Below, one piece after another: positions 1 through 60,121 of a stretch of DNA of 64,000 nucleotides. How positions within the stretch are numbered: position 1 is the stretch's first letter; each line of letters begins with the position of its first letter. The translations under genes and the position numbers were made by a program. The DNA is from Methanomassiliicoccaceae archaeon (GTDB taxonomy: Archaea > Thermoplasmatota > Thermoplasmata > Methanomassiliicoccales > Methanomassiliicoccaceae), in the NCBI GenBank assembly GCA_963728405.1, contig CAVSJV010000007.1:192001-256000 (forward strand). Direction: 5' to 3'. A model generated the notes under the pieces. It made no database searches. It was not told the origin of the DNA and worked only from the letters and a program-made list of their open reading frames with translations.

Positions 1-89
1 GCCCTTTTCTTTCAGGTCTTTTCAGCCTATTTCTACATGGAATTTTTCCAATCCAGTTAATTATCTGTCTCGAGAAGCCAAACTCTTTT

Positions 90-290
90 TTACCGCTCTA
101 CATCGAAGTAGATCCGTACCAGTGCGTGGTACTCGGTTATGTGTCCCTCCCCGACCATGCAGTCAAGCTCCCTTACCCTGACCCACCGGATGTTCCTGAC
201 CGTCTTGGCGGTCTCGGTGACCGCATCATCGACCGCCTTGGCGAAGCTCTCCGGCGATATTCCAACGATCTCCAGTACTTTCTCAACCAT
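90..290 (-). CDS. Dodecin family flavin-binding protein
   Basis: 66 aa MVEKVLEIVGISPESFAKAVDDAVTETAKTVRNIRWVRVRE...ITEYHALVRIYF matches the dodecin pattern (ELVGxSxxS...AxxTxxxxxW). Start taken at ATG 290 rather than the ORF-track start 323. Confidence 0.85.
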   Translation of the reverse strand: MVEKVLEIVGISPESFAKAVDDAVTETAKTVRNIRWVRVRELDCMVGEGHITEYHALVRIYFDVER

Positions 291-323
291 GGTATCGTGG
301 AAGAACGTGGGCAGGAAGAACAC

Positions 324-779
324 TTATAAATTTGGTTTTCCCCGGGGGGTCAGCTGGGCAATGGTGTCCAGTTCGGTGTTCAATAATGCATCCGCCCGGG
401 TGATCATGGGGTTTTCGCGGGGTACGTGGCGGAAGGAGGCTTTCGTGAACCCCTTCATCAGGGCCCTCACCTCGGCAAGCAGGGGTTGTAGATTGGGGGC
501 CTTGCAAGAGTACTGGCCATTTACGTGTTTGACCACCAGTTCCGAGTCCATGACCATCTCGACCTCATCGGCTCCGAGGGCTTTCGCCTCCTTCAGGCCG
601 GCGATGGCCCCTTGGTACTCGGCTACGTTATTGGTATCCTTCCCCGCATAGCGGGCGAACTCCTTGAGCACCTTATTGGTGCCGTCTGTCATTATGACCG
701 CGTATGCCGAGGGCCCGGGATTACCGCGGGACCCACCGTCGGTGTAGACCGTGAGCTTAATGATGACCACCCTGCCCAA
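324..779 (-). CDS. rnhA: Ribonuclease HI (type 1, archaeal/Bacillus-like)
   Basis: Motifs YTDGGSRGNPG, TNNVAEY, DSELVV, HVPRE.P..RADAL; DEDD catalytic set present. Exact start uncertain. Confidence 0.92.
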   Translation of the reverse strand: MGRVVIIKLTVYTDGGSRGNPGPSAYAVIMTDGTNKVLKEFARYAGKDTNNVAEYQGAIAGLKEAKALGADEVEMVMDSELVVKHVNGQYSCKAPNLQPLLAEVRALMKGFTKASFRHVPRENPMITRADALLNTELDTIAQLTPRGKPNL

Positions 780-46695: not shown

Positions 46696-48486
46696 ATGTG
46701 CGGGATCATAGGGTATGCGGGCCCCCGGAACGCGGAGGAAGTGCTCCTCGATGGACTAAAAAGGCTGGAGTACAGAGGCTATGACTCAGCGGGCATCGCC
46801 ATAGCGGGCAGCAAGCTGGAGATATTCAAGGACAAAGGCGAGATATCCAAGATGGCTGCCACTATGCCCAGCTTGCGAGGGCACCTCGGGGTCGGCCACA
46901 CCAGGTGGGCGACCTGCGGAAAACCTTCCAAGCTGAACGCCCATCCCTTCCTCGATTGCACCGGTAAGATGGCGGTGGTGCACAACGGCATCATAGAGAA
47001 TTACCTGGCCTTGAGGAAGAAGCTCAAGGACGAGGGCCACGTGTTCACCTCCGAGACGGACACCGAAGTGCTGGTCCACCTGCTCGAGAAGCATTACCGG
47101 GGCGATCTGCATGCCGCGCTGGTCGAGACGCTGAAGGAGATCAAGGGAACCTACGCGGTGGTGGCCATCCGGGCCGACCGCAATGAACTGGTCGCCGCGC
47201 GGAAAGAGAACCCCCTGGTGGTCGGACTGGGCGTCGGAGAGAATATCATCGCCTCCGATGTCACGGCCATGCTCAACTACACCAACAAGGCCGTCTACAT
47301 AATGGACGGCGAGACCGTGGTTCTCGGCTCCGGCAAGGTCTCCATATATGATCGGCAAGGCGCGGAGGTCCGCCGGGAGCCGTCTATGATCACATGGACG
47401 GTGGAGGACGCTCAGAAGGGCGGGTTCGAGCATTACATGCTCAAGGAGATATTCGAGCAGCCGACCGCTATCCATAACTCCCTCCTGGGTAGCCTGGATG
47501 AGCTGGAATCAGGTAACTTGATGATCGATCAGGACGTCTCATCGGTAAAGTTGGTAGCCTGCGGGACTTCCTATCATGCGTCGATGGTGGGCAAGTACAT
47601 CATCGAGCAACTGGCCAAGGTCCCCACCACCGTGGAGCTGGCATCAGAGTACCGCTATTCGCCAGGCACTGGAGAGAACCCCCTGACCGTCCTGCTGACT
47701 CAGTCTGGAGAGACGGCCGACACCCTGGCCGCGGCCAGAGAGGCCCGCCGCAGGGGCTGCCGCACCCTGGCCGTCACCAACGTGGTCGGAAGCACCATCG
47801 CCCGCGAGGTCGACAGCGTGTTCTACACCAAGGCAGGCCCTGAGATCGGGGTCGCGGCCACCAAGACCTATACGACCCAGCTGATCTCCATGTATCTCTT
47901 GGGTATTCGCCTGGGACAGCTGCGTCACAAGATGGCCCGCGATGAGGTCCGGGAGCTGGCCTCCGAGCTCAGAGGCATGCCCCGCTACATCCGGAAGGTG
48001 CTGGACCTTGCCCATGAGGTGGATGCGGCCGCCGACATGCTCGTCCCTGCCAGGGATGTGTTCTTCCTCGGTCGGAACATCAACTATCCCACCATGTTGG
48101 AGGGCGCCCTCAAGCTCAAGGAGATATCCTACATTCACGCCGAAGGCTATGCCGCCGGCGAGCTGAAGCACGGCCCCCTGGCGTTACTGGACGCGTCCAC
48201 CCCAGTGGTGGCGGCGTGCGTTCGGGACCACACCTACGAGAAGATGCTGGCCAACATATCAGAGGTCGCCGCCCGGGACAGCCCCATACTTGGCATCGGG
48301 ATCGAGGGCGACACCGAGCTGGCGGCGGTGGCCGATTCAACGGTCTTCATCCCCAAGGTCTTTCCCATCCTTTCCCCGGTACCTCTGACGGTCATGGTGC
48401 AGCTGATCGCCTACTACACGGCCAAGAAGAGAGGATGCCCCATCGACAAGCCCCGGAACCTGGCCAAGAGCGTCACCGTCGATTAA
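46696..48486 (+). CDS. glmS: Glutamine--fructose-6-phosphate aminotransferase
   Basis: MCGIIG, LEYRGYDSAG, GHTRWAT, HNGIIEN, QSGETADT, ELKHGP, DKPRNLAKSVTV. Confidence 0.97.
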   Translation: MCGIIGYAGPRNAEEVLLDGLKRLEYRGYDSAGIAIAGSKLEIFKDKGEISKMAATMPSLRGHLGVGHTRWATCGKPSKLNAHPFLDCTGKMAVVHNGIIENYLALRKKLKDEGHVFTSETDTEVLVHLLEKHYRGDLHAALVETLKEIKGTYAVVAIRADRNELVAARKENPLVVGLGVGENIIASDVTAMLNYTNKAVYIMDGETVVLGSGKVSIYDRQGAEVRREPSMITWTVEDAQKGGFEHYMLKEIFEQPTAIHNSLLGSLDELESGNLMIDQDVSSVKLVACGTSYHASMVGKYIIEQLAKVPTTVELASEYRYSPGTGENPLTVLLTQSGETADTLAAAREARRRGCRTLAVTNVVGSTIAREVDSVFYTKAGPEIGVAATKTYTTQLISMYLLGIRLGQLRHKMARDEVRELASELRGMPRYIRKVLDLAHEVDAAADMLVPARDVFFLGRNINYPTMLEGALKLKEISYIHAEGYAAGELKHGPLALLDASTPVVAACVRDHTYEKMLANISEVAARDSPILGIGIEGDTELAAVADSTVFIPKVFPILSPVPLTVMVQLIAYYTAKKRGCPIDKPRNLAKSVTVD

Positions 48487-49457
48487 TCCAGCCTCTCGGG
48501 GCAAGCGTCCCTTCGTGAGCAGGAGCGGCATTTACCCGGCCGGTCGTGGTCGCGATGAGCCTCTCCGGATGATATCGCCATCCTCATCTCCGCCAGTTTC
48601 GTCAGCAGCAGGGACCGGAGGTTCTGGTCGAACTCGATGACGTGCTCGACCTCCCCGTACCTGAGGATGCCGTAGCTCACCCTGCCCTCCTGCTCCATGA
48701 GGAGGCAGTATGCAGCCAGCTGTATGATGTGCGAGAACAGCGGCCCGCGGGGGACCCGCCCGGTCTTCACCTCTACCGGGACAAGCTCGCCATCTATCTC
48801 CAAGATATAGTCCGGCCTGCCGGCCAGTTGGTGTTCCTCGGACCTAAGGGTCCGGGGCTCTCCGCCCTCCCCGATGTAGGCGATGCGTCCCTTGACATTG
48901 AAGGACTCCCTGATCTTCCTAGCTCCCTCCGCCTGCGCCTGGGACAGGTAAAGGGCCAGGGAGGCTGCCATCAGTAGCAGCAGAGCGACGGCCTCGGCTA
49001 GCAACCCCTGGTCCTGGCTGAACCCGAAGATAGGGACGGCGTTGAGGGCCAGGACCATCGCCAGGATCGCGAGGACACCGATCCACAGCTCGCTCTTCTC
49101 CCGGTCCCAGGGGGCCCTGGTCCGGGCCGAGTTGTAGAGAACGGTGATGGCCAGCAGGATCCATAGCAGAGCGAGAACGCTGAGGGCCCTGGCTCGAAGC
49201 AGAACATCGGTGGAAGCGAAGACGAAAAGCCCGATCAGGGCCAGGGCGGTGGCGACCACCGACGATGCGATGACCAGGCGCTCATACTGCGATGCCCGGC
49301 GCTCTTGGCGAACAATGCCCCGGAGCTCAGATGCCATCCGATCATGGCGTTGGCGGCCTTGGTCAAGGCCTTCCTCGCAGACCTCGTTGTCCCGAAGCTG
49401 CCAGCTCAGGGGACAGTAACAGAACTTTTCGAGGTCTCCCGCGGAGATTCCTGCCAT
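48483..49457 (-). CDS. cas4: Solo Cas4-family nuclease with four inserted transmembrane helices
   Basis: SAGDLEKFCYCP, G...H, four hydrophobic segments, GRPD, VEVKTG, HIIQLAAY, KCRSC-x5-C. Confidence 0.88.
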   Translation of the reverse strand: MAGISAGDLEKFCYCPLSWQLRDNEVCEEGLDQGRQRHDRMASELRGIVRQERRASQYERLVIASSVVATALALIGLFVFASTDVLLRARALSVLALLWILLAITVLYNSARTRAPWDREKSELWIGVLAILAMVLALNAVPIFGFSQDQGLLAEAVALLLLMAASLALYLSQAQAEGARKIRESFNVKGRIAYIGEGGEPRTLRSEEHQLAGRPDYILEIDGELVPVEVKTGRVPRGPLFSHIIQLAAYCLLMEQEGRVSYGILRYGEVEHVIEFDQNLRSLLLTKLAEMRMAISSGEAHRDHDRPGKCRSCSRRDACPERLD

Positions 49458-49521: not shown

Positions 49522-50328
49522 TCAGACCTGATCATTGATGATCTCTTCGGGGCAGAAGTCCCCGCCACCGGACGCCCGCTCGCAATCCATGTTGCACAGA
49601 CAGGCGTCGATGATCTCGATGCCAGGCGGACAATCGACCTCTTCGACATGCCCGAACCAGTAGACCACTAGGCCATGACCGAACATCTCAACATATTGGC
49701 TGAGCTGTCCGCGGATGTTCTTGTTGAACTCGATGCGGTCGCCGAAGGAGGCCTTGGACTCGATCCAGTTGAGCGTCCACCCATTGACCTTCAATGGCTC
49801 ATCGAGCAGGCAGTCGGGGGTCTTGGTGAACTTGCCCCGGAGGTCCTTCTCGGTGCGGTAGGTGATGTTGTGGGCGTTGAGCCACTCCTGAAGTTTGGTC
49901 TCTCCCCAGGTTCCTCGTTTGTACTGGACATCGTTCCCCCAGGGTGAGTAGATGGTATCGGCCTCGGTGATCTCGATGATCTCCCGCTTGGTGCGGGGAT
50001 TGGCGATGCACTCCGGCTCGCGGACATATTTCCAGAACTCCTTCTTGGAGTACCCATCCTCCTGGAACAGCAACAGGCCAGTGAGGATGGGGGGAAAATT
50101 CCACTTGTCGGAGATCTCCAGGAGACTGATCCCGGACCTCCAATCCCTCAGCAAACGGGGGGCGTTCCTTTTGACCACATGATAGTGCTTGGTAGCTTCA
50201 CGTACCGTCCTTTGGGTGTAGATGACGTTGAGAAGCTCTTCATCAAGACCGGTCTGTTTTGACAGGGCTTTCACATCTCTATGTGTGTTTAGCCGATCAT
50301 AAAGGGTCTTGAACTCTTCAAATTTCAT
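49522..50328 (-). CDS. TPD-domain protein, CDIN1/C15orf41-like PD-(D/E)xK nuclease
   Basis: N-terminal HTH-like region, G.WGE..L, TEKDLR...KTPDCLL, WIESKASFGD, Q...Y...FG.GLVVYWFG. Confidence 0.88.
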   Translation of the reverse strand: MKFEEFKTLYDRLNTHRDVKALSKQTGLDEELLNVIYTQRTVREATKHYHVVKRNAPRLLRDWRSGISLLEISDKWNFPPILTGLLLFQEDGYSKKEFWKYVREPECIANPRTKREIIEITEADTIYSPWGNDVQYKRGTWGETKLQEWLNAHNITYRTEKDLRGKFTKTPDCLLDEPLKVNGWTLNWIESKASFGDRIEFNKNIRGQLSQYVEMFGHGLVVYWFGHVEEVDCPPGIEIIDACLCNMDCERASGGGDFCPEEIINDQV

Positions 50329-55371: not shown

Positions 55372-56282
55372 TCCTTCAACCCCCTGCCGGTGAGCTTCAG
55401 GAACACGTCCTCGAGCGTGGCGGGACGAACGGTCGAATCGACGTCGGGGTACCTCTTCTTGAACTCAGTCTGGACCACATAGCACTCTTTCGAATAGACA
55501 TAGATGCGGTCGGCCGAGCGCTCGATATGGTCGCCCGTCGATCCCAGGTACTTCTCGATCTCCGTCCCGTTGGGGTCCATGACCTCCATGACACAGGGGC
55601 CGACGACCTGCTGGATCAGTGCTTTGGGCGTTCCCTCTACCAGGAACTTGCCGCTCTCCATGATGACCAGGCGGTCACACAGCTGCTCGGCCTCGTCCAT
55701 GTAATGAGTGGTGAGGATGATGCTGGTCCCCCGCTTCTTGAGCTCCCGTATGCGATCCCAGATCAGGTGGCGCGCCTGGGGGTCCAGTCCGGTGGTCGGC
55801 TCGTCCAGGATGAGGATCTTGGGGTTGTTGATCAGCGCCCGGGCGACGATCAGGCGGCGCTTCATCCCACCTGACAGGCTCTCGATCATATTGTCCGCCT
55901 TCTCGGTAAGCTGCATGAACTCCAGCAGGTCCCGCGACCGCTTCTCCGCCTCGGCAGCGGGAATATGAAAGTAGCGAGCATAGGTCGTGAGGTTCTTAAT
56001 GACCGAGAAATCGGGATCGAGGTTCGATTCCTGGGGGGCCACCCCGATCAGTTGCTTGACCTCCTTGGGATGCTCGGTCACATCCATGTCCATCACATCC
56101 AACTTTCCAGAGGTGATGGGGGACACCGTCTGGATCATACGCATAGTGGTGCTCTTGCCCGCGCCGTTCGGTCCGAGGAATCCGAAGATCTCGCTCTGTT
56201 CGATCTGAAAACTTATGTGGTCCACTGCCGTCAGTTCGTCATACTTCTTTACGAGGTCCTTAGCAGCAACGACCACGGACAT
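55368..56282 (-). CDS. ABC exporter ATP-binding protein (NodI/DrrA-like)
   Basis: GPNGAGKST, LSGGMKRR, ILDEPTTGLDP, TTHYMDEAE.LCDR, TLEDVFL.LTG. Confidence 0.95.
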   Translation of the reverse strand: MSVVVAAKDLVKKYDELTAVDHISFQIEQSEIFGFLGPNGAGKSTTMRMIQTVSPITSGKLDVMDMDVTEHPKEVKQLIGVAPQESNLDPDFSVIKNLTTYARYFHIPAAEAEKRSRDLLEFMQLTEKADNMIESLSGGMKRRLIVARALINNPKILILDEPTTGLDPQARHLIWDRIRELKKRGTSIILTTHYMDEAEQLCDRLVIMESGKFLVEGTPKALIQQVVGPCVMEVMDPNGTEIEKYLGSTGDHIERSADRIYVYSKECYVVQTEFKKRYPDVDSTVRPATLEDVFLKLTGRGLKE

Positions 56283-56353
56283 GTAGCTCCCTAATCCAAC
56301 TTCTAGTTAATATATCATGAACGAAGCCTAAGCGTAGCCGGGTCCCTTTTCCC

Positions 56354-57958
56354 TTGGCCAGTGGAGGACGGGGGGTGGACCTTCCCTTGTTGCTGGCGGT
56401 GCTCTATTTCTCGTTCCTGGGAACCGGCCTGGGGTCTCTGACCGGCCTCACTCCCGGTGTCCACGTCAACACCCTGGCCCTGATCCTGGTGTCATCTTGC
56501 CCATTGCTCCTGCCCCTGCTGGAAGAGGCCGCTGCCGCCCTGGGGACGGTACGCGAAGCGGCTCCCCTGCTGATGGTCACCGTCATCGTCTCCGCGGCGG
56601 TGGCCCATTCCTTTCTCGACTTCCTTCCATCGATCTTCCTGGGCGCGCCGGAGGAGGGTACCGCCCTCAGCACCTTGCCCGGTCATCGGCTGCTACTGAG
56701 TGGTAAAGGGCTGGACGCGGTCCTCTGCTCCGCCTACGGCGGCCTGGTGGGCGCTACCGCCGCAGTGGTGCTGTGCCTGCCACTGTCCCTGGTTTTGGGC
56801 CCGCCCCTCGGCCTGTTCCCGCTGCTGGACCAGGCGACCCCGTTCCTGGTGGTGGCCGCCCTGATGGCCCTGGTGATCTCGGAGAAGGGAAAGAAGCTCC
56901 GGGTGGCGGTCCGGGTCCGCAAGGTCACACGCACTAGGGGGGCGGTAAGCCTGGTCCGTTCGGTCCCGGTGAACGGCCTGGAAGCGACCTTAGTAGGGAG
57001 AGTGGAGAGGGACCGGTATGGGAGAAAGTGGCTCCGGACCTCCCATGGCCGGTGGCGGCTGAAAGGGGCAAGCGTTCAGGGGGGTATGGTCAGGGTAGAA
57101 TGTGTCTGGCAGGTACGTCATTCCGCCATTCGTGAACGCTGCTATGCCGTTGCGCTCCTGCTCATCTCCGGCCTGCTAGGGCTCACCTGCATGGGATCCC
57201 GTCTACCGCTCACCGACATCTGGGAAGGCATGGACCAGAGCATACTCTTCCCGCTGCTCACCGGCCTGTTCGGCCTGCCGGGGATCATCAGCTCCCTCCG
57301 CTCCAGCACAATCCCCCCGCAGCTCGAGCCGTCCGCTTTCCAGGGTGAGCTGGGGCCCGGCCTGCGGGGAGCACTGTCCGGCGCGCTGGTCGGCTGGTTC
57401 CCCGGGATATCTTCTACCACGGGGGTAATCATTGCCTCTGCGTTCTCGCGCGACCGCGAGGATCAACTGGCCGGTTCGCGCCGCTATCTGGCCATGGTGT
57501 CGGCGGTGGGCACATCGTCCACCGTGCTCGGTCTCCTGGCCCTCTCCATCGCCTACAAGGGGCGCTCAGGGGCGATGCTGGCGGCCAAGGAGGTGCTGGG
57601 GCCGGAGGGGGTATCGCTGCTCTCCCTCCCCTCGCCGTGGTTCCCCCTTCTCCTCGCGGCGGCGCTCCTCTCCGCCGCGGTCAGCTACCTGCTCGCGCTC
57701 CGGTTGGGCCGGCGCCTGGCCCGCCTGGCGGCCGGGGCGGACCTCGGCCCCCTGAACAAGGTCATACTCATCCTTATCGTCCTTCTGGTCGCGGTGTTCT
57801 GCGGGCTGCCGGGGCTGCTGGTCCTTGTGGTGGCTACCTTCCTGGGCTTCCTGCCTCCGCGGCTTGGGGTAAGCCGCGTCCACCTGACCGGATGCCTCCT
57901 GCTCCCGACGGCACTGTACTTCCTCGGCCTAGAGGCAGGGCTCCTGTCGGTGCTTTGA
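56354..57958 (+). CDS. Archaeal TctA/DUF112 family permease with a basic soluble insert
   Basis: TGLTPGVHVN, H.FLDFLPSIFLGAP, LPGHRLL..G.G, FPLLTGLFG, PGISS, RSG, V.RVHL.G.LL.P. Start uncertain. Confidence 0.88.
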   Translation: MASGGRGVDLPLLLAVLYFSFLGTGLGSLTGLTPGVHVNTLALILVSSCPLLLPLLEEAAAALGTVREAAPLLMVTVIVSAAVAHSFLDFLPSIFLGAPEEGTALSTLPGHRLLLSGKGLDAVLCSAYGGLVGATAAVVLCLPLSLVLGPPLGLFPLLDQATPFLVVAALMALVISEKGKKLRVAVRVRKVTRTRGAVSLVRSVPVNGLEATLVGRVERDRYGRKWLRTSHGRWRLKGASVQGGMVRVECVWQVRHSAIRERCYAVALLLISGLLGLTCMGSRLPLTDIWEGMDQSILFPLLTGLFGLPGIISSLRSSTIPPQLEPSAFQGELGPGLRGALSGALVGWFPGISSTTGVIIASAFSRDREDQLAGSRRYLAMVSAVGTSSTVLGLLALSIAYKGRSGAMLAAKEVLGPEGVSLLSLPSPWFPLLLAAALLSAAVSYLLALRLGRRLARLAAGADLGPLNKVILILIVLLVAVFCGLPGLLVLVVATFLGFLPPRLGVSRVHLTGCLLLPTALYFLGLEAGLLSVL

Positions 57959-60121
57959 TCGGCCATTATCATCCCGCGCCCTCAACTCTTCAAAGCTCCA
58001 GCCGAACGGGGACAGCAGTTCGGACGCCCCCCGCAGCGCGAACTCCACGTACCGCTCCGCGTCATAGTGCTCGTCCCCGTCCAGGAAGGGCGCGGCCCTA
58101 ACCCGTTGCCAGGAGCTCTTGCTCTTGGAGTCGGTGATGAGGTACTCGACGGCCTGCCCGGGCTGCAGCTCGAACCCCTGGTCATGCAGCTGGCGGAGGG
58201 CGGCCACCGAATCGTTGAACTGCACGTACTCCTCCAGCCGCCGGGATATGCTCTTCCGCATGATCAGGCGGTCCCTGGACACCGTGCCGGAGCGCAGCTC
58301 CTCGGCGTAGCGGTCCAGGGCTCGGAGCGAGGAGGGCACCAGCTCCCGGAACTCGTCGGCGTCCTTGGCCCTAGAGAGGTGCTTGAGCATGTCCTGCTGC
58401 AGGTCCTCGATCAGGGTGGGGGTGTCCTTCCGGCGGACGGCAATGCCTCGTAACTTCAGCTCTCCGCTCTCGAACATGCCGTAGTATCTGTTGAGCGCCC
58501 CGATGCCAGTGGAAATGTTCGGAAGGAAGACGATCCAAGCGTATCTCCCTTCCAGGTTCAGAGGGATGCCCACCTCTCGGCTCATCTCCTCGCAGTACGA
58601 AGCGGCGTCCCCGTCCCCTTTCAACCACAACGAATCGACGATGCCGTGGAGGACCTCGAAGCCTCTTCTCTCCGCCAGGTCCGCGGAGCGAATGAGAATG
58701 TCCCTGCCGAAGGCGGTGATCGATTCATGGCATTCGATGCGCCCGAACCTAGCGTTGCGATAACCAGTGTAGCCAAAGCAGGTCACCAATACCCATTTGA
58801 GCGCCTTCGCTCGCTGATCATACATCTCCCCCTTCCGACCGCCCTGCTTCTTCAGCTGCTTGTACACCCGGCGGCGGTTGAGGAGGGGGACCAGCACCTT
58901 TGGTATGAGCCCCTGCCGCTTCTCACAGATGTGATATCCGAGTTCGGGAACGGTCCTGCCCGAGTGGGGACAGCATGAGCACAGCAGCGTCTCCGGGGAG
59001 ATGTTGTACTGGACCATGATGCTAGGGTAGAGGGAGAAGAAATCGACCTCCCAGACGTGGTCGTGGACGCCGACCTTGGGCTCGTAGATGAACCCCCCAC
59101 GGTCCGACACGATCAGCGCCCTGGCGGTCTTGAAGTCCTCGGGCAGGTTCTTCTTCCATAGGATGACATGGCCGGAGCGCACGGCCTCGTTCACTTGCAT
59201 GGCGCTGATGGCGCTGCCTGGCGACAGCCGGGAGAGGTCCTGCAGAGGGATCATCGACAGCCGGGATAGCTCGATGAGGCCGTGCAGCCCGCTCTCCATG
59301 AAGGTGAACGATGCCTCGCGGTCGATATGAACGCGCCCCCGTAGCTTATGGCCAGGCGGCTTGTACACGATGCGGCCGTAGGTGAAGAAGCTCTTGCCCT
59401 TAGAGGTAAGCTCGCCCTTCTCCCGGCCGAGCTCGAGCTGGAGCCCGTTGGCTTCCGCGCGCTTGTGCAGGTACGGCAGGTAGAACGAATCGCCCTTGCT
59501 GGTGTAGATGATGTCCGGGTCCCTTTCCGCGATGAGGGCCTGCAGCTCTTTGAGCACCTCATCCTCGGGACCATCCAGCACGACGTCGTCCGCGGTGATC
59601 GAGACGATGGTGTCCTCGAAGGTCGGTATCCCCACCCCGGCAGTCCTGATCTTGAGGTCCAGGGAGCTCAGGTCGGGGATAGGATAATCGATGCGCAGGT
59701 TGGAGTCCAGGGAGCGCAGGGACGGCGCCTCCACCAGCCCCATGGAGAAGATGCCCTTCTCCAGGAAGTAGCGCTGGTCCATGCGCAGGTCGACGTTATA
59801 GAGCAGGTGATGGTGGTAGTCGCCCCACGAGTCGATGGTGACCGCCAACGGCTGGATGGCGGCGTAATCGCGGACCGCGATCGAGAGCACGTCCCTCTCC
59901 CGCTCCCCCAGTCCGGTCCGCCGGCGCACTATCGCCGTGTCCCTGACCCCCAAGAGCGTGAGGTCCCTGACCAGCTTCTCCAGCCGCTCGCGGGAAGCGC
60001 GCACGTAGATGTGCGGCACGAAGCCCTCGATCACTCGCTCCACGCCCTGGTTGGTCTTGATCCAGGTGACCATGCGGTTCTCGGCCATGTCGGCGTAGCA
60101 GTCCAGCACCCAGCCCTTCAT
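57929..60121 (-). CDS. polB2: Archaeal DNA polymerase B2 (Dpo2 type)
   Basis: DRGG....P..G, motif A DFFSLYPSIM, CxCC...C zinc insert, motif B K..L...FGY.GY, motif C HGIVDS (variant of YGDTDS), NRYYG, RGI..RR.DTP; eroded exonuclease domain. Confidence 0.92.
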   Translation of the reverse strand: MKGWVLDCYADMAENRMVTWIKTNQGVERVIEGFVPHIYVRASRERLEKLVRDLTLLGVRDTAIVRRRTGLGERERDVLSIAVRDYAAIQPLAVTIDSWGDYHHHLLYNVDLRMDQRYFLEKGIFSMGLVEAPSLRSLDSNLRIDYPIPDLSSLDLKIRTAGVGIPTFEDTIVSITADDVVLDGPEDEVLKELQALIAERDPDIIYTSKGDSFYLPYLHKRAEANGLQLELGREKGELTSKGKSFFTYGRIVYKPPGHKLRGRVHIDREASFTFMESGLHGLIELSRLSMIPLQDLSRLSPGSAISAMQVNEAVRSGHVILWKKNLPEDFKTARALIVSDRGGFIYEPKVGVHDHVWEVDFFSLYPSIMVQYNISPETLLCSCCPHSGRTVPELGYHICEKRQGLIPKVLVPLLNRRRVYKQLKKQGGRKGEMYDQRAKALKWVLVTCFGYTGYRNARFGRIECHESITAFGRDILIRSADLAERRGFEVLHGIVDSLWLKGDGDAASYCEEMSREVGIPLNLEGRYAWIVFLPNISTGIGALNRYYGMFESGELKLRGIAVRRKDTPTLIEDLQQDMLKHLSRAKDADEFRELVPSSLRALDRYAEELRSGTVSRDRLIMRKSISRRLEEYVQFNDSVAALRQLHDQGFELQPGQAVEYLITDSKSKSSWQRVRAAPFLDGDEHYDAERYVEFALRGASELLSPFGWSFEELRARDDNGRSKHRQEPCL

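What the first reader, a model, noticed from the sequence alone, without database searches (positions are those of the whole stretch)
48483..49457. Membrane-embedded Cas4: four TM helices inserted within the Fe-S nuclease
Seen: the first Fe-S cysteine (YCP) and motif I (G...H) precede about 110 aa holding four hydrophobic helices (about 48945-49280). Motifs II/III (GRPD, EVK), QxxxY and the three C-terminal cysteines follow, all intact. An even helix number keeps both halves on one membrane face so the 4Fe-4S cluster can close, which argues the topology is under selection. No cas1/cas2 or array is in the window. Inference: a membrane-tethered exonuclease processing DNA at entry or exit (uptake, conjugation or antiviral defence). 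I know of no characterised example.
Basis: partly seen in the sequence, partly recalled or inferred. Interest (0 to 1): 0.8.

Follow-up and report, generated by a model that had tools for sequence, protein, structure and literature searches.

The report
Membrane-embedded solo Cas4 nuclease family
A Cas4-type DNA-cutting enzyme that passes four times through the cell membrane in the middle of its catalytic domain is a conserved, CRISPR-independent protein of a whole archaeal phylum, with two-piece versions elsewhere, and its job has not been tested.

Summary
ORF 48483-49457(-) encodes a 324-aa Cas4-family PD-(D/E)XK/Fe-S nuclease. Its fold is interrupted by about 110 aa of four very hydrophobic helices, between motif I and motif II. 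All catalytic and cluster residues are invariant in 26 of 26 aligned relatives. The AlphaFold model rejoins both halves into one Cas4 domain (Z 18.8 to a solved Cas4).

It is not a singleton. A profile matches 283 of 401 sampled genomes of the phylum and 1004 protein clusters at E<=1e-10. Variants carry 2, 4 or 8 helices. In Thermoplasmatales-like archaea and Chloroflexota the enzyme is split into two adjacent genes, each half keeping one helix. Loop charges place both nuclease halves in the cytoplasm.

The genome shows no cas1, cas2 or CRISPR array, and neighbours are housekeeping genes. No conserved partner, virus copy or full-length plasmid copy was found.

Best reading: a cytoplasm-facing, membrane-tethered solo-Cas4 acting on DNA ends at the inner membrane face. 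The biological role (handling incoming DNA, repair or RNA turnover) is open. I found no paper describing the membrane insertion or the split forms. I rate it a new variant of a known kind, interest about 0.68.

The parts
48483..49457 (-). Whole ORF, 324 aa plus stop: membrane-embedded solo Cas4 (P0001)
49323..49457 (-). N-terminal piece of the Cas4 fold, aa 1-45. It holds cluster Cys15 (nt 49413-49415) and motif I G34...H38 (His38 at nt 49344-49346).
   Evidence: Invariant in 26/26. The model range starting at residue 1 aligns to Cas4 chains. The separate N-half ORF of Chloroflexota hits Cas4 model positions 3-50.
49278..49322 (-). Stalk helix 1, aa 46-60, rich in Arg and continuous with TM1
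   Evidence: AF2 helix 28-81. Mean of 3.41 K+R in the 15 aa before TM1 in 133 relatives.
49218..49277 (-). TM1, aa 61-80 (hairpin A, first helix)
49137..49202 (-). TM2, aa 86-107 (hairpin A, second helix, invariant W99)
49089..49136 (-). Cytoplasmic loop, aa 108-123, positively charged
   Evidence: Mean of 4.44 K+R in loop 2, against 0.79 and 0.44 in loops 1 and 3
49026..49088 (-). TM3, aa 124-144 (hairpin B, first helix)
48948..49007 (-). TM4, aa 151-170 (hairpin B, second helix)
48900..48947 (-). Stalk helix 2, aa 171-186, continuous with TM4
   Evidence: AF2 helix 148-186
48486..48899 (-). C-terminal two thirds of the Cas4 fold, aa 187-324. It holds GRPD (48810-48821), EVK (48765-48773), QLAAY (48708-48722), the family signature HRxHxRxGK, and CxxCx5C (48501-48530).

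Best explanation
The gene encodes a CRISPR-independent ('solo') Cas4-family nuclease that is an integral membrane protein.

Architecture. Two tandem copies of a two-helix transmembrane hairpin are inserted into the catalytic domain at Cas4 profile position about 50-60, between motif I and motif II. The N terminus, the loop between the hairpins and the C terminus all lie in the cytoplasm. The N-terminal piece carries one cluster cysteine and the metal-binding histidine. The C-terminal piece carries D, ExK, QxxxY and three cysteines. The two pieces meet under the membrane and form one complete Cas4 domain with a 4Fe-4S site. That domain hangs on a two-helix stalk that continues directly from TM1 and TM4.

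Inferred activity and role. The enzyme would cut nucleic-acid ends, most likely DNA, that come close to the inner face of the membrane. The tether would keep it away from the bulk chromosome. It is an old, vertically inherited, single-copy cellular gene of Thermoplasmatota that streamlined lineages have lost. It is neither part of CRISPR adaptation nor a mobile defence island gene.

Shown: fold, motifs, hydrophobic helices, charge topology, family breadth, split forms, absence of cas genes, housekeeping context.

Inferred: Fe-S binding, nuclease activity, DNA as substrate, action at the membrane, biological role.
For: Family and fold:
- TIGR00372 scores 72.4 bits against a cut-off of 65, and Pfam PF01930 and PF12705 match.
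- A PDB profile search hits Cas4 4ic1 at 3.8e-7 and 8d3l at 8.1e-6.
- The AF2 model has pLDDT 79.7 and pTM 0.68.
- Foldseek's top hits are Cas4 8d3l_I and 7mi4_A.
- VIA-align gives 7mi5_A Z 18.8 (rmsd 2.6, 154 aligned) and 7mi4_A Z 18.2 (172 aligned, model 1..324 on chain 8..211). Both halves therefore sit in one Cas4 domain.

Residues: all motif and cluster residues are invariant in 26/26.

Membrane:
- There are four hydropathy peaks above 2.2, and AF2 helices 28-81, 85-112, 116-140 and 148-186 cover them.
- In 133 four-helix relatives, mean K+R is 3.41 before TM1, 0.79 in loop 1, 4.44 in loop 2, 0.44 in loop 3 and 3.44 after TM4.
- Of 165 proteins carrying all three motifs, 155 have 2, 4 or 8 helices at a strict threshold. 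One has none. The 9 odd counts become even at looser thresholds: 8 at 1.4 and all 9 at 1.2.
- Hairpin A against hairpin B by hhalign gives probability 98.2% and E 3e-14 over 58 columns.

Split forms:
- In 2 of 3 examined genomes of family f8, abutting ORFs encode an N-half with one C-terminal helix and a C-half with one N-terminal helix.
- The same arrangement occurs in 50 of 78 evaluable Chloroflexota loci.
- The N-half alone matches Cas4 model positions 3-50.

Breadth:
- 117 of the 120 best homologues are at least 302 aa.
- 283 of 401 phylum genomes match.
- 2391, 1004 and 197 representative clusters match at E<=1e-3, 1e-10 and 1e-30.

Not CRISPR:
- The own genome has one Cas4 match, no Cas1 and no Cas2, and no array.
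- Across the phylum sample Cas1 matches 97 of 401 genomes. Family f29 has the profile in 10/10 and Cas1 in 0/10. The figures for f28 are 5/5 and 0/5, for f22 50/53 and 11/53, and for f2 2/48 and 22/48.

Cellular housekeeping context:
- Window neighbours include glmU-like, glmS, adenine deaminase, a PRTase, ABC and TctA transporters and PolB.
- Elsewhere the neighbours include ribosomal proteins L15e and S2, FtsZ, Trm1, Dus, a class I (W and Y) tRNA synthetase, RNR and PurH.
- No neighbour cluster occurs in more than 9 of 41 loci.
- No match was found in IMG/VR or phage records, and only 4 partial plasmid matches.
Against: - No biochemical or localisation data exist.
- No dedicated transmembrane predictor was available. 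Helices rest on hydropathy, AF2 and charge bias.
- AF2 confidence is low at the cluster loop (aa 306-313 below 50), and I could not measure Cys-Cys distances because coordinates are not exposed.
- Some relatives lack the N-half. This holds for 28 of 78 Chloroflexota loci with none within 700 nt upstream and for the TRAM-fused forms of family f41. A complete four-Cys site is therefore not universal.
- TRAM fusions and a translin-like neighbour in Chloroflexota point as much to RNA as to DNA.
- dN/dS is uninformative. Synonymous sites are near saturation. The nearest pair gives 0.24 for the insert and 0.18 for the C domain.
- The 283 of 401 count includes weak matches in families f6 and f8. One of the five I examined was an ordinary Cas4-Cas1 fusion.
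Confidence: 0.6

Rival explanations
1. It is an antiviral or anti-plasmid effector. The nuclease would be gated by the membrane and switched on by membrane disturbance at virus entry, or it would degrade linear DNA as it enters. This is.
For: - The Cas4 family includes defence-linked members. PADLOC hits Cas4 models and, weakly, DruK.
- The catalytic histidine and one cluster cysteine sit on a helix continuous with TM1.
- In split forms the halves share only membrane helices. Helix movement could therefore control the active site.
- Some relatives carry a large insert in the first outside loop (P0183; L057).
- The gene is missing in 46 of 48 genomes of family f2, which more often have Cas1 (22 of 48).
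Against: - The gene is single-copy, and match strength falls with taxonomic distance.
- Neighbours are housekeeping genes in 41 loci, with no conserved partner.
- No PADLOC system partner is present among the neighbours.
- No copies were found in viruses.
- Hudaiberdiev et al. 2017 (PMC5704561; abstract and passages read) report that solo-cas4 genes evolve like ordinary cellular genes.
Confidence: 0.15
2. It is a membrane-tethered RNA-processing or RNA-decay nuclease. The analogy to bacterial RNase Y and RNase E, which act at the membrane, is recalled and not from a call.
For: - C-terminal TRAM domains occur in f41 forms (PF01938, 1.6e-15).
- A translin-like gene cluster occurs in 40 of 80 Chloroflexota loci. 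It lies upstream on the same strand within three genes in 26 of the 53 loci where the C-half was clustered.
- Frequent neighbours are translation genes: L15e, S2, Trm1, Dus and a tRNA synthetase.
Against: - Solved and characterised relatives found here (Cas4, AddB/AdnA, Dna2, MGME1, Exo5) are DNA enzymes.
- The translin match is below Pfam's cut-off (22.9 and 24.8 bits against 25.9).
- The translin link is absent from Thermoplasmatota loci. The own genome's translin gene lies on another contig.
- Housekeeping neighbours vary, so they are not evidence of an operon.
Confidence: 0.12
3. It is an ordinary CRISPR adaptation Cas4, as the database names say, working with Cas1-Cas2 encoded elsewhere.
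For: Sources name the homologues 'CRISPR-associated protein Cas4', and TIGR00372 scores above its cut-off.
Against: - No Cas1 or Cas2 match and no array in a 93.75%-complete genome.
- Whole families carry the protein without any Cas1 match, such as f29 (10/10 against 0/10) and f28 (5/5 against 0/5).
- It is never next to cas genes in the 41 loci read.
Confidence: 0.03
4. It is an artefact. Either the hydrophobic block is a soluble helical bundle, or the ORF is a misassembly or fusion of two genes.
For: The helical part alone gives middling structural matches to soluble four-helix proteins (Z about 8-9), and no dedicated membrane predictor was run.
Against: - The same architecture is present in hundreds of independent assemblies.
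- Hydropathy of 2.2-2.5 is sustained over 19 residues.
- Positive charges alternate between sides of the membrane.
- Split forms keep one hydrophobic helix at the cut end of each half.
Confidence: 0.02

Closest known systems
CRISPR-associated Cas4 (solved: G. sulfurreducens Cas4-Cas1 7MI4/7MI5, type I-C Cas4 8D3L, SSO0001 4IC1, Pcal_0546 4R5Q)
   Same: It shares the PD-(D/E)XK core, motifs I-III and QxxxY, and one N-terminal plus three C-terminal cluster cysteines. Structural matches are Z 18.8, 18.2 and 16.5. HMM scores are above the curated cut-offs.
   Different: - The domain is interrupted by a 4-TM insertion of about 110 hydrophobic residues plus stalks.
- No cas1, cas2 or array is present.
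- A family-specific HRxHxRxGK signature lies before the CxxC. It is not aligned to 4ic1 but is shared with the Chloroflexota C-halves.
Solo-Cas4 (Hudaiberdiev et al. 2017, PMC5704561; M. mazei Solo-Cas4, Rentz et al. 2025, PMC12501428)
   Same: The gene lies outside CRISPR loci and is mostly vertically inherited. The 2017 paper notes a monophyletic solo-Cas4 group in 'many Chloroflexi' (passages read). The M. mazei enzyme binds a 4Fe-4S cluster and cuts DNA in a metal-dependent way (abstract).
   Different: - Neither main text mentions a transmembrane segment. 'Transmembrane' occurs 0 times in both. 'Membrane' occurs once in a figure-legend abbreviation in the first and 0 times in the second. 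Supplements could not be seen.
- The M. mazei protein was purified as a soluble high oligomer (abstract).
- I did not test whether it is the orthologue of this family.
Fe-S nuclease domains of AddB/AdnA, Dna2, Exo5 and MGME1
   Same: They share the fold and, except MGME1, the cluster arrangement. Matches are Z 11.7-14.3.
   Different: Those are soluble domains, often fused to helicases. None among the listed matches has a membrane insertion.
Membrane-associated nucleic-acid systems: Kiwa (search listing only); RNase Y/RNase E, EndA/NucA and ComEC (recalled, no call)
   Same: They share the idea of placing a nucleic-acid enzyme or DNA binder at the membrane.
   Different: There is no sequence relation. 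In those systems the anchor is terminal or is a separate subunit, whereas here the membrane helices lie inside the catalytic domain. EndA, NucA and ComEC nucleases face outwards, whereas this one faces the cytoplasm.

Membership tests
Cas4 (TIGR00372 / PF01930 / COG1468) | Profile score above the curated cut-off | tested here: met
   TIGR00372 scores 72.4 bits against 65 and PF01930 scores 35.6 against 22.7. Only profile positions about 53-180 are matched in one stretch, because the insertion breaks the N-terminal part off.
Cas4 (TIGR00372 / PF01930 / COG1468) | RecB-type motifs I (His), II (Asp), III (ExK) and QhxxY | tested here: met
   H38, D216, E229, K231, Q246 and Y250 are invariant in 26/26.
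Cas4 (TIGR00372 / PF01930 / COG1468) | Four cysteines, C...CxxCx5C, for a 4Fe-4S cluster | tested here: met
   C15, C310, C313 and C319 are invariant in 26/26. Actual cluster binding is not testable here.
Cas4 (TIGR00372 / PF01930 / COG1468) | Cas4 three-dimensional fold including the N-terminal segment | tested here: met
   VIA-align gives 7mi4_A Z 18.2 with 172 aligned residues, model 1..324 on chain 8..211. Foldseek gives 8d3l_I at 2.7e-5.
Cas4 (TIGR00372 / PF01930 / COG1468) | Compact soluble domain of about 160-220 aa | tested here: not met
   An insertion of four hydrophobic helices plus stalks occupies aa 46-186.
CRISPR adaptation module (CAS-Cas4) | Encoded with cas1/cas2 next to a CRISPR array | tested here: not met
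   No Cas1 or Cas2 match in the genome, no array and no cas neighbour in 41 loci. The genome is 93.75% complete, so absence is not proven.
Solo-Cas4 (sense of Hudaiberdiev et al. 2017) | A Cas4-family gene outside CRISPR-cas loci and mobile elements, inherited mainly vertically | tested here: met
   The context is housekeeping. No virus copy was found. Match strength falls from genus to order to class to phylum. No formal tree-to-species-tree test was done, and the small tree was unresolved.
Known anti-phage defence systems (PADLOC-DB 2.0) | Match to a system-specific protein together with that system's partner genes nearby | tested here: not met
   Only Cas4 models and weak DruK matches were found for the nuclease half. 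The TPD neighbour has no hit.
Active nuclease / Fe-S protein | Metal-dependent cleavage of DNA, and 420-nm absorbance | not testable with these tools
   Requires purified protein.

The most novel reading that the evidence does not exclude
The transmembrane hairpins may be a switch rather than a passive anchor. The catalytic histidine and one Fe-S cysteine ride on a helix continuous with TM1. The rest of the active site hangs from TM4. In natural two-gene forms the halves are held together only by two helices in the bilayer. Membrane state (voltage, lipid packing, or disturbance by an entering virus or DNA-transfer apparatus) could therefore assemble or misalign the active site. That would make a nuclease gated from within the membrane. 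Copy-number changes of the hairpin (1, 2 or 4 units) and lineage-specific domains in the first outside loop would tune the sensor.
Probability: 0.15. Interest if true: 0.85.

Novelty: new variant of a known kind. Interest (0 to 1): 0.68.

Why it matters
1. Annotation. Thousands of database entries named 'CRISPR-associated protein Cas4' in Thermoplasmatota and Chloroflexota are integral membrane proteins, or halves of one, in genomes that often lack CRISPR. The annotation misleads.

2. Enzyme architecture. It would be the first membrane-integral member of the Cas4/RecB-like Fe-S nuclease group that I could find. The membrane helices lie inside the catalytic domain, which is rare for any enzyme.

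3. Split enzymes. The natural two-gene forms are a ready-made case of an enzyme reassembled through transmembrane helices. This is of interest for protein engineering and for studying how such inserts arise.

4. Function of solo-Cas4. That function is an open question, and a fixed address at the inner face of the membrane narrows the options. A cultured relative has an orthologue: a source names P0027, 61% identical, as from Methanomassiliicoccus luminyensis.

Tried and rejected
- TPD-domain neighbour as functional partner. It is adjacent upstream in 9 of 9 Methanomassiliicoccales loci but is not co-distributed. Family f2 has TPD in 48/48 and the nuclease in 2/48. The figures for f22 are 0/53 and 50/53, and for f11 0/14 and 14/14. 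I rejected it as order-level synteny.
- NurA replacement idea. NurA matches 94 of 401 genomes. It is lacking in f22 (0/53) and f25 (0/24), which have the nuclease. But both occur in f11 (13/14 and 14/14), and both are mostly lacking in f2 (4/48 and 2/48). There is no clean pattern.
- Conserved operon search. Clustering of ORFs in 41 archaeal loci found no neighbour cluster in more than 9 loci.
- Small tree of C-terminal domains (34 rows, quick method). 12 of 31 forks were open and only 4 starred. Three rows I had labelled 'canonical' turned out to carry a hydrophobic stretch (L074, L075) or to be very long-branched.
- dN/dS. Synonymous sites are near saturation.
- ESM Atlas search with the insert (aa 46-186). 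The best score was 0.77, below the usable range.
- Homodimer prediction with complex prediction. No verdict was returned.
- RNA evidence. No RNA holder was listed.
- Mobile-element searches. IMG/VR pattern scan: 35 pattern matches, none confirmed. Phage records by tblastn: no match. Plasmids: 4 partial matches to the C domain only, 27-35% identity.
- Weak Pfam hits of the insert (DUF7546 at 0.015, S_4TM at 0.032, and others) are all below their cut-offs.
- One search was an empty script.
- Literature. Six searches and passages of three papers gave no description of a membrane-embedded or split Cas4. Supplementary files, which hold the 2017 Cas4 trees, could not be read.
Full report
**The observation**

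The ORF 48483..49457 on the minus strand encodes 324 aa. Its C-terminal part, aa 203-320, matches NCBIfam TIGR00372 cas4 at 72.4 bits against a cut-off of 65, on profile positions 60-179 of 180. It also matches Pfam Cas_Cas4 and PDDEXK_1.

The N terminus carries YCPLSW (C15) and G34...H38. Between the two parts lie four 19-residue hydropathy peaks of 2.24-2.54, at aa 61-79, 89-107, 126-144 and 151-169.

In an alignment of 26 full-length relatives (43-89% identity), these residues are invariant: C15, G34, H38, D216, E229, K231, Q246, Y250, C310, C313 and C319. C13 and C27 are not invariant.

**Fold**

AlphaFold2 run on that alignment gives pLDDT 79.7 and pTM 0.68. The helices are 28-81, 85-112, 116-140 and 148-186, followed by a beta-sheet core. 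The cluster loop at 306-313 is of low confidence.

Foldseek ranks Cas4 chains first, with 8d3l_I at 2.7e-5 and 7mi4_A at 9.4e-5. VIA-align gives:
- 7mi5_A: Z 18.8, rmsd 2.6, 154 aligned.
- 7mi4_A: Z 18.2, 172 aligned, model 1..324 on chain 8..211.
- 8d3l_I: Z 16.5.
- AdnA, MGME1, SSO0001, Exo5 and Dna2 at Z 11.7-14.3.

The aligned range starts at model residue 1 and about 170 residues align. The model therefore puts the N-terminal piece back in its normal place in the Cas4 domain, with the four helices looping out. I could not read coordinates, so Cys-Cys distances were not measured.

**Membrane topology**

No dedicated predictor was available. Three lines of evidence agree.

1. Hydropathy peaks and AF2 helices coincide.
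2. In 133 relatives with four predicted helices, mean K+R counts are 3.41 in the 15 aa before TM1 and 0.79 in loop 1. They are 4.44 in loop 2, 0.44 in loop 3 and 3.44 in the 15 aa after TM4. This is the positive-inside pattern for N-in, C-in.
3. I examined 266 proteins, a mix of 90%-identity and 50%-identity cluster representatives that are not independent. Of these, 165 have the N-terminal Cys motif, GxPD and CxxC...C.
   - Of those 165, 10 have 2 helices, 133 have 4 and 12 have 8.
   - One has none, and 9 have an odd count (3, 7 or 1) at a threshold of 1.7.
   - Eight of the 9 become even at 1.4 and all 9 at 1.2.
   - 44 proteins that lack the N-terminal motif have exactly one helix.

So whenever both nuclease pieces are on one chain, the helix number is even. 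The outside loops are short, about 13 and 9.5 aa on average. The enzyme therefore faces the cytoplasm and has little exposed outside.

**The insert is a duplicated hairpin**

Profile-profile comparison of aa 46-113 with aa 114-186 gives probability 98.2%, E 3e-14, over 58 columns. A Glu before the first helix and the W...LYxS end of the second helix fall in register. Membrane-helix composition may inflate this score. Relatives with 2, 4 and 8 helices fit a unit that is gained and lost in pairs.

**Breadth**

- The 5.8-billion-protein search gave 365 hits among 8000 scored candidates. Of the best 120, 117 are at least 302 aa and cover the query nearly end to end. Where named, sources call them Cas4 from Methanomassiliicoccus, Methanomassiliicoccales or Thermoplasmata.
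- The exhaustive search of 1.84 billion representatives gave 2391, 1004 and 197 clusters at E<=1e-3, 1e-10 and 1e-30.
- In 401 sampled genomes of the phylum, 283 match at E<=1e-5. Best E-values fall from 1e-146 in the same genus, through 1e-97 to 1e-142 in the order, to about 1e-27 to 1e-120 elsewhere in the phylum, apart from one outlier at 2e-12 (G313).
- The count includes weak matches in families f6 and f8. Of five such genomes examined, two hold split membrane forms and one an ordinary Cas4-Cas1 fusion. The other two hold forms with a hydrophobic stretch before the nuclease half.
- The gene was mostly not found in family f2 (2 of 48), in genus g2 of the window's own family (0 of 4) and in much of f14 (11 of 36). 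In f14 the genomes without it are the smaller ones.

**Split forms**

In two genomes of family f8, from different genera, two abutting same-strand ORFs replace the single gene.
- The first ORF is 89 or 82 aa. It carries ISASE..YC, G...H and one C-terminal hydrophobic helix, then a stop.
- The second ORF is 172 or 171 aa. It starts with one hydrophobic helix followed by basic residues, then GKPD, EYK, QxxxY and CxxCx5C.
- In one genome the two are in different frames with a one-base gap. In the other an in-frame stop is followed directly by a start codon.

The second ORF aligns end to end with a large group of about 175-aa proteins. That group gave 3338 hits, named Chloroflexota or Anaerolineae where a name is given.

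The best 80 genomic loci are all Chloroflexota. Of these, 78 could be evaluated: one had too little upstream sequence and one had no recognisable C-half.
- In 50 of the 78, a separate ORF with ASE..Y.FC and G...H lies directly upstream. In 49 of the 50 it also ends in a hydrophobic helix.
- In 28 there is none within 700 nt.

This N-half alone matches positions 3-50 of Cas4 models. The cut lies in what would be the outside loop of a single hairpin.

Forms of family f41 have eight helices, C-terminal TRAM domains and no N-half.

**Not CRISPR, not mobile**

- The own genome (18 contigs, 93.75% complete) has one Cas4-family match, which is this gene. It has no Cas1 and no Cas2 match, and no array by an exact 18-mer scan.
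- Across the same 401 genomes, Cas1 matches 97. Families f29 (nuclease 10/10, Cas1 0/10), f28 (5/5, 0/5), f22 (50/53, 11/53) and f25 (23/24, 5/24) carry the nuclease largely without Cas1. Family f2 shows the reverse (2/48, 22/48).
- In the window the neighbours are glpABC-like dehydrogenase genes, KaiC-like ATPases, a glmU-like gene, glmS (convergent, overlapping by 4 nt) and a TPD-domain protein. Further along lie adenine deaminase, a phosphoribosyltransferase, ABC and TctA transporters and a family B DNA polymerase.
- In 40 further loci from many families, neighbour clusters are shared by at most 9 loci, all of them in the window's own order.
- Neighbours elsewhere include L15e, S2, FtsZ, Trm1, Dus, a THEP1-type NTPase and a class I tRNA synthetase. 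An IF-2B-like protein, phosphoglycerate mutase, ribonucleotide reductase and PurH also occur.
- There are no matches in IMG/VR or phage records and only four partial plasmid matches.
- PADLOC gives only Cas4 and weak DruK models.

**How it most likely works**

Shown:
- A complete set of Cas4 catalytic and cluster residues.
- A Cas4 fold split by an even number of membrane helices.
- Cytoplasmic orientation.
- Rigid helical continuity from TM1 into the motif I helix, and from TM4 into the C-terminal domain.

Inferred:
- The protein binds a 4Fe-4S cluster and a divalent metal.
- It cuts DNA ends that come within about 2-3 nm of the inner membrane face. I estimate this distance from 15-17 stalk residues in helices.
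- The tether keeps it off the bulk of the chromosome.

Which DNA it meets there is not known. It could be incoming foreign DNA, broken chromosome ends or DNA at the division site. The housekeeping context, the single copy, the pattern of descent and the loss in small genomes favour a general cellular role such as repair or innate clearance of linear DNA. They count against a dedicated defence island gene.

TRAM fusions and the translin-like neighbour in Chloroflexota keep an RNA substrate open.

**Comparison with what is known**

The protein meets the sequence and fold criteria of Cas4. It fails two features: the compact soluble domain and the CRISPR association. It fits 'solo-Cas4' as defined by Hudaiberdiev et al. 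2017.
- That paper's main text reports vertically evolving solo-Cas4 branches in archaea and a monophyletic group in many Chloroflexi. It contains no mention of transmembrane segments. Its supplements could not be read.
- The one biochemically studied solo-Cas4, from M. mazei, was handled as a soluble oligomer (abstract). 'Membrane' occurs 0 times in that text.

Six full-text searches found nothing on membrane-embedded or split Cas4. I therefore rate it a new variant of a known kind.

**Limits**

- There are no experiments and no expression data.
- The homodimer prediction gave no verdict.
- The tree was unresolved and dN/dS was saturated.

Noticed in passing
L073 1495..2284(-) and L072 1492..2256(-): In two genomes of family f8, from different genera, the membrane Cas4 is two abutting genes. 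One is an N-half of 89 or 82 aa ending in one hydrophobic helix. The other is a C-half of 172 or 171 aa starting with one. The cut lies in the predicted outside loop.
   Followed up: yes
L080-L159 (Chloroflexota), e.g. L093 2678-2929(+) and 2936-3454(+): The bacterial 'Cas4' proteins of about 175 aa are C-halves with one N-terminal helix. In 50 of 78 evaluable loci a separate N-half ORF sits directly upstream. In 28 there is none within 700 nt, and it is unknown where the N-half is, if it exists.
   Followed up: partly
L083 1934-2668(+), L088 2044-2772(+) and 38 other Chloroflexota loci: A translin-like gene lies upstream of the two halves on the same strand. Its PF01997 scores are 22.9 and 24.8 bits, just below the 25.9 cut-off. 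The cluster occurs in 40 of 80 loci. No such link is seen in the archaeal loci, and the window's genome has its translin gene on another contig (L160).
   Followed up: partly
L063 7548-9482(-), L054 7101-8843(+), P0187: Forms of family f41 have eight helices and one or two C-terminal TRAM domains. They have no N-terminal Cys/motif I piece, so they carry only three cluster cysteines.
   Followed up: partly
P0183 (aa about 100-200); L057 7989-9749(-): Some relatives carry an insert of 100-150 aa between the first two helices, in the loop predicted to lie outside the cell. It has no Pfam match. It could be an added extracellular domain.
   Followed up: no
window 49522-50328(-): A TPD-domain protein (PF14811, 9.3e-45), from the family of human C15orf41/CDIN1 (recalled), lies directly upstream on the same strand. 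The pair is syntenic in 9 of 9 loci of the order. TPD occurs in 226 of 401 phylum genomes independently of the nuclease.
   Followed up: yes
L074 and L075 (family f6): Weak profile matches that I first took for ordinary Cas4 also show a hydrophobic stretch before the nuclease half, within open frames of 288 and 307 aa. ORF calling is noisy in these high-GC genomes.
   Followed up: no
window 56001-58000: This stretch has a strong T-over-A bias (AT skew -0.239) and 64% G+C. It coincides with a TctA-family membrane transporter gene (56354-57958, +). A family B DNA polymerase gene follows at 57929-60121(-).
   Followed up: partly
whole genome G000: No NurA match was found in the window's genome or in any of the other 14 sampled genomes of families f1, f3, f4 and f5. 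Only 4 of 48 genomes in f2 have one. The order seems largely to lack this end-resection nuclease.
   Followed up: partly
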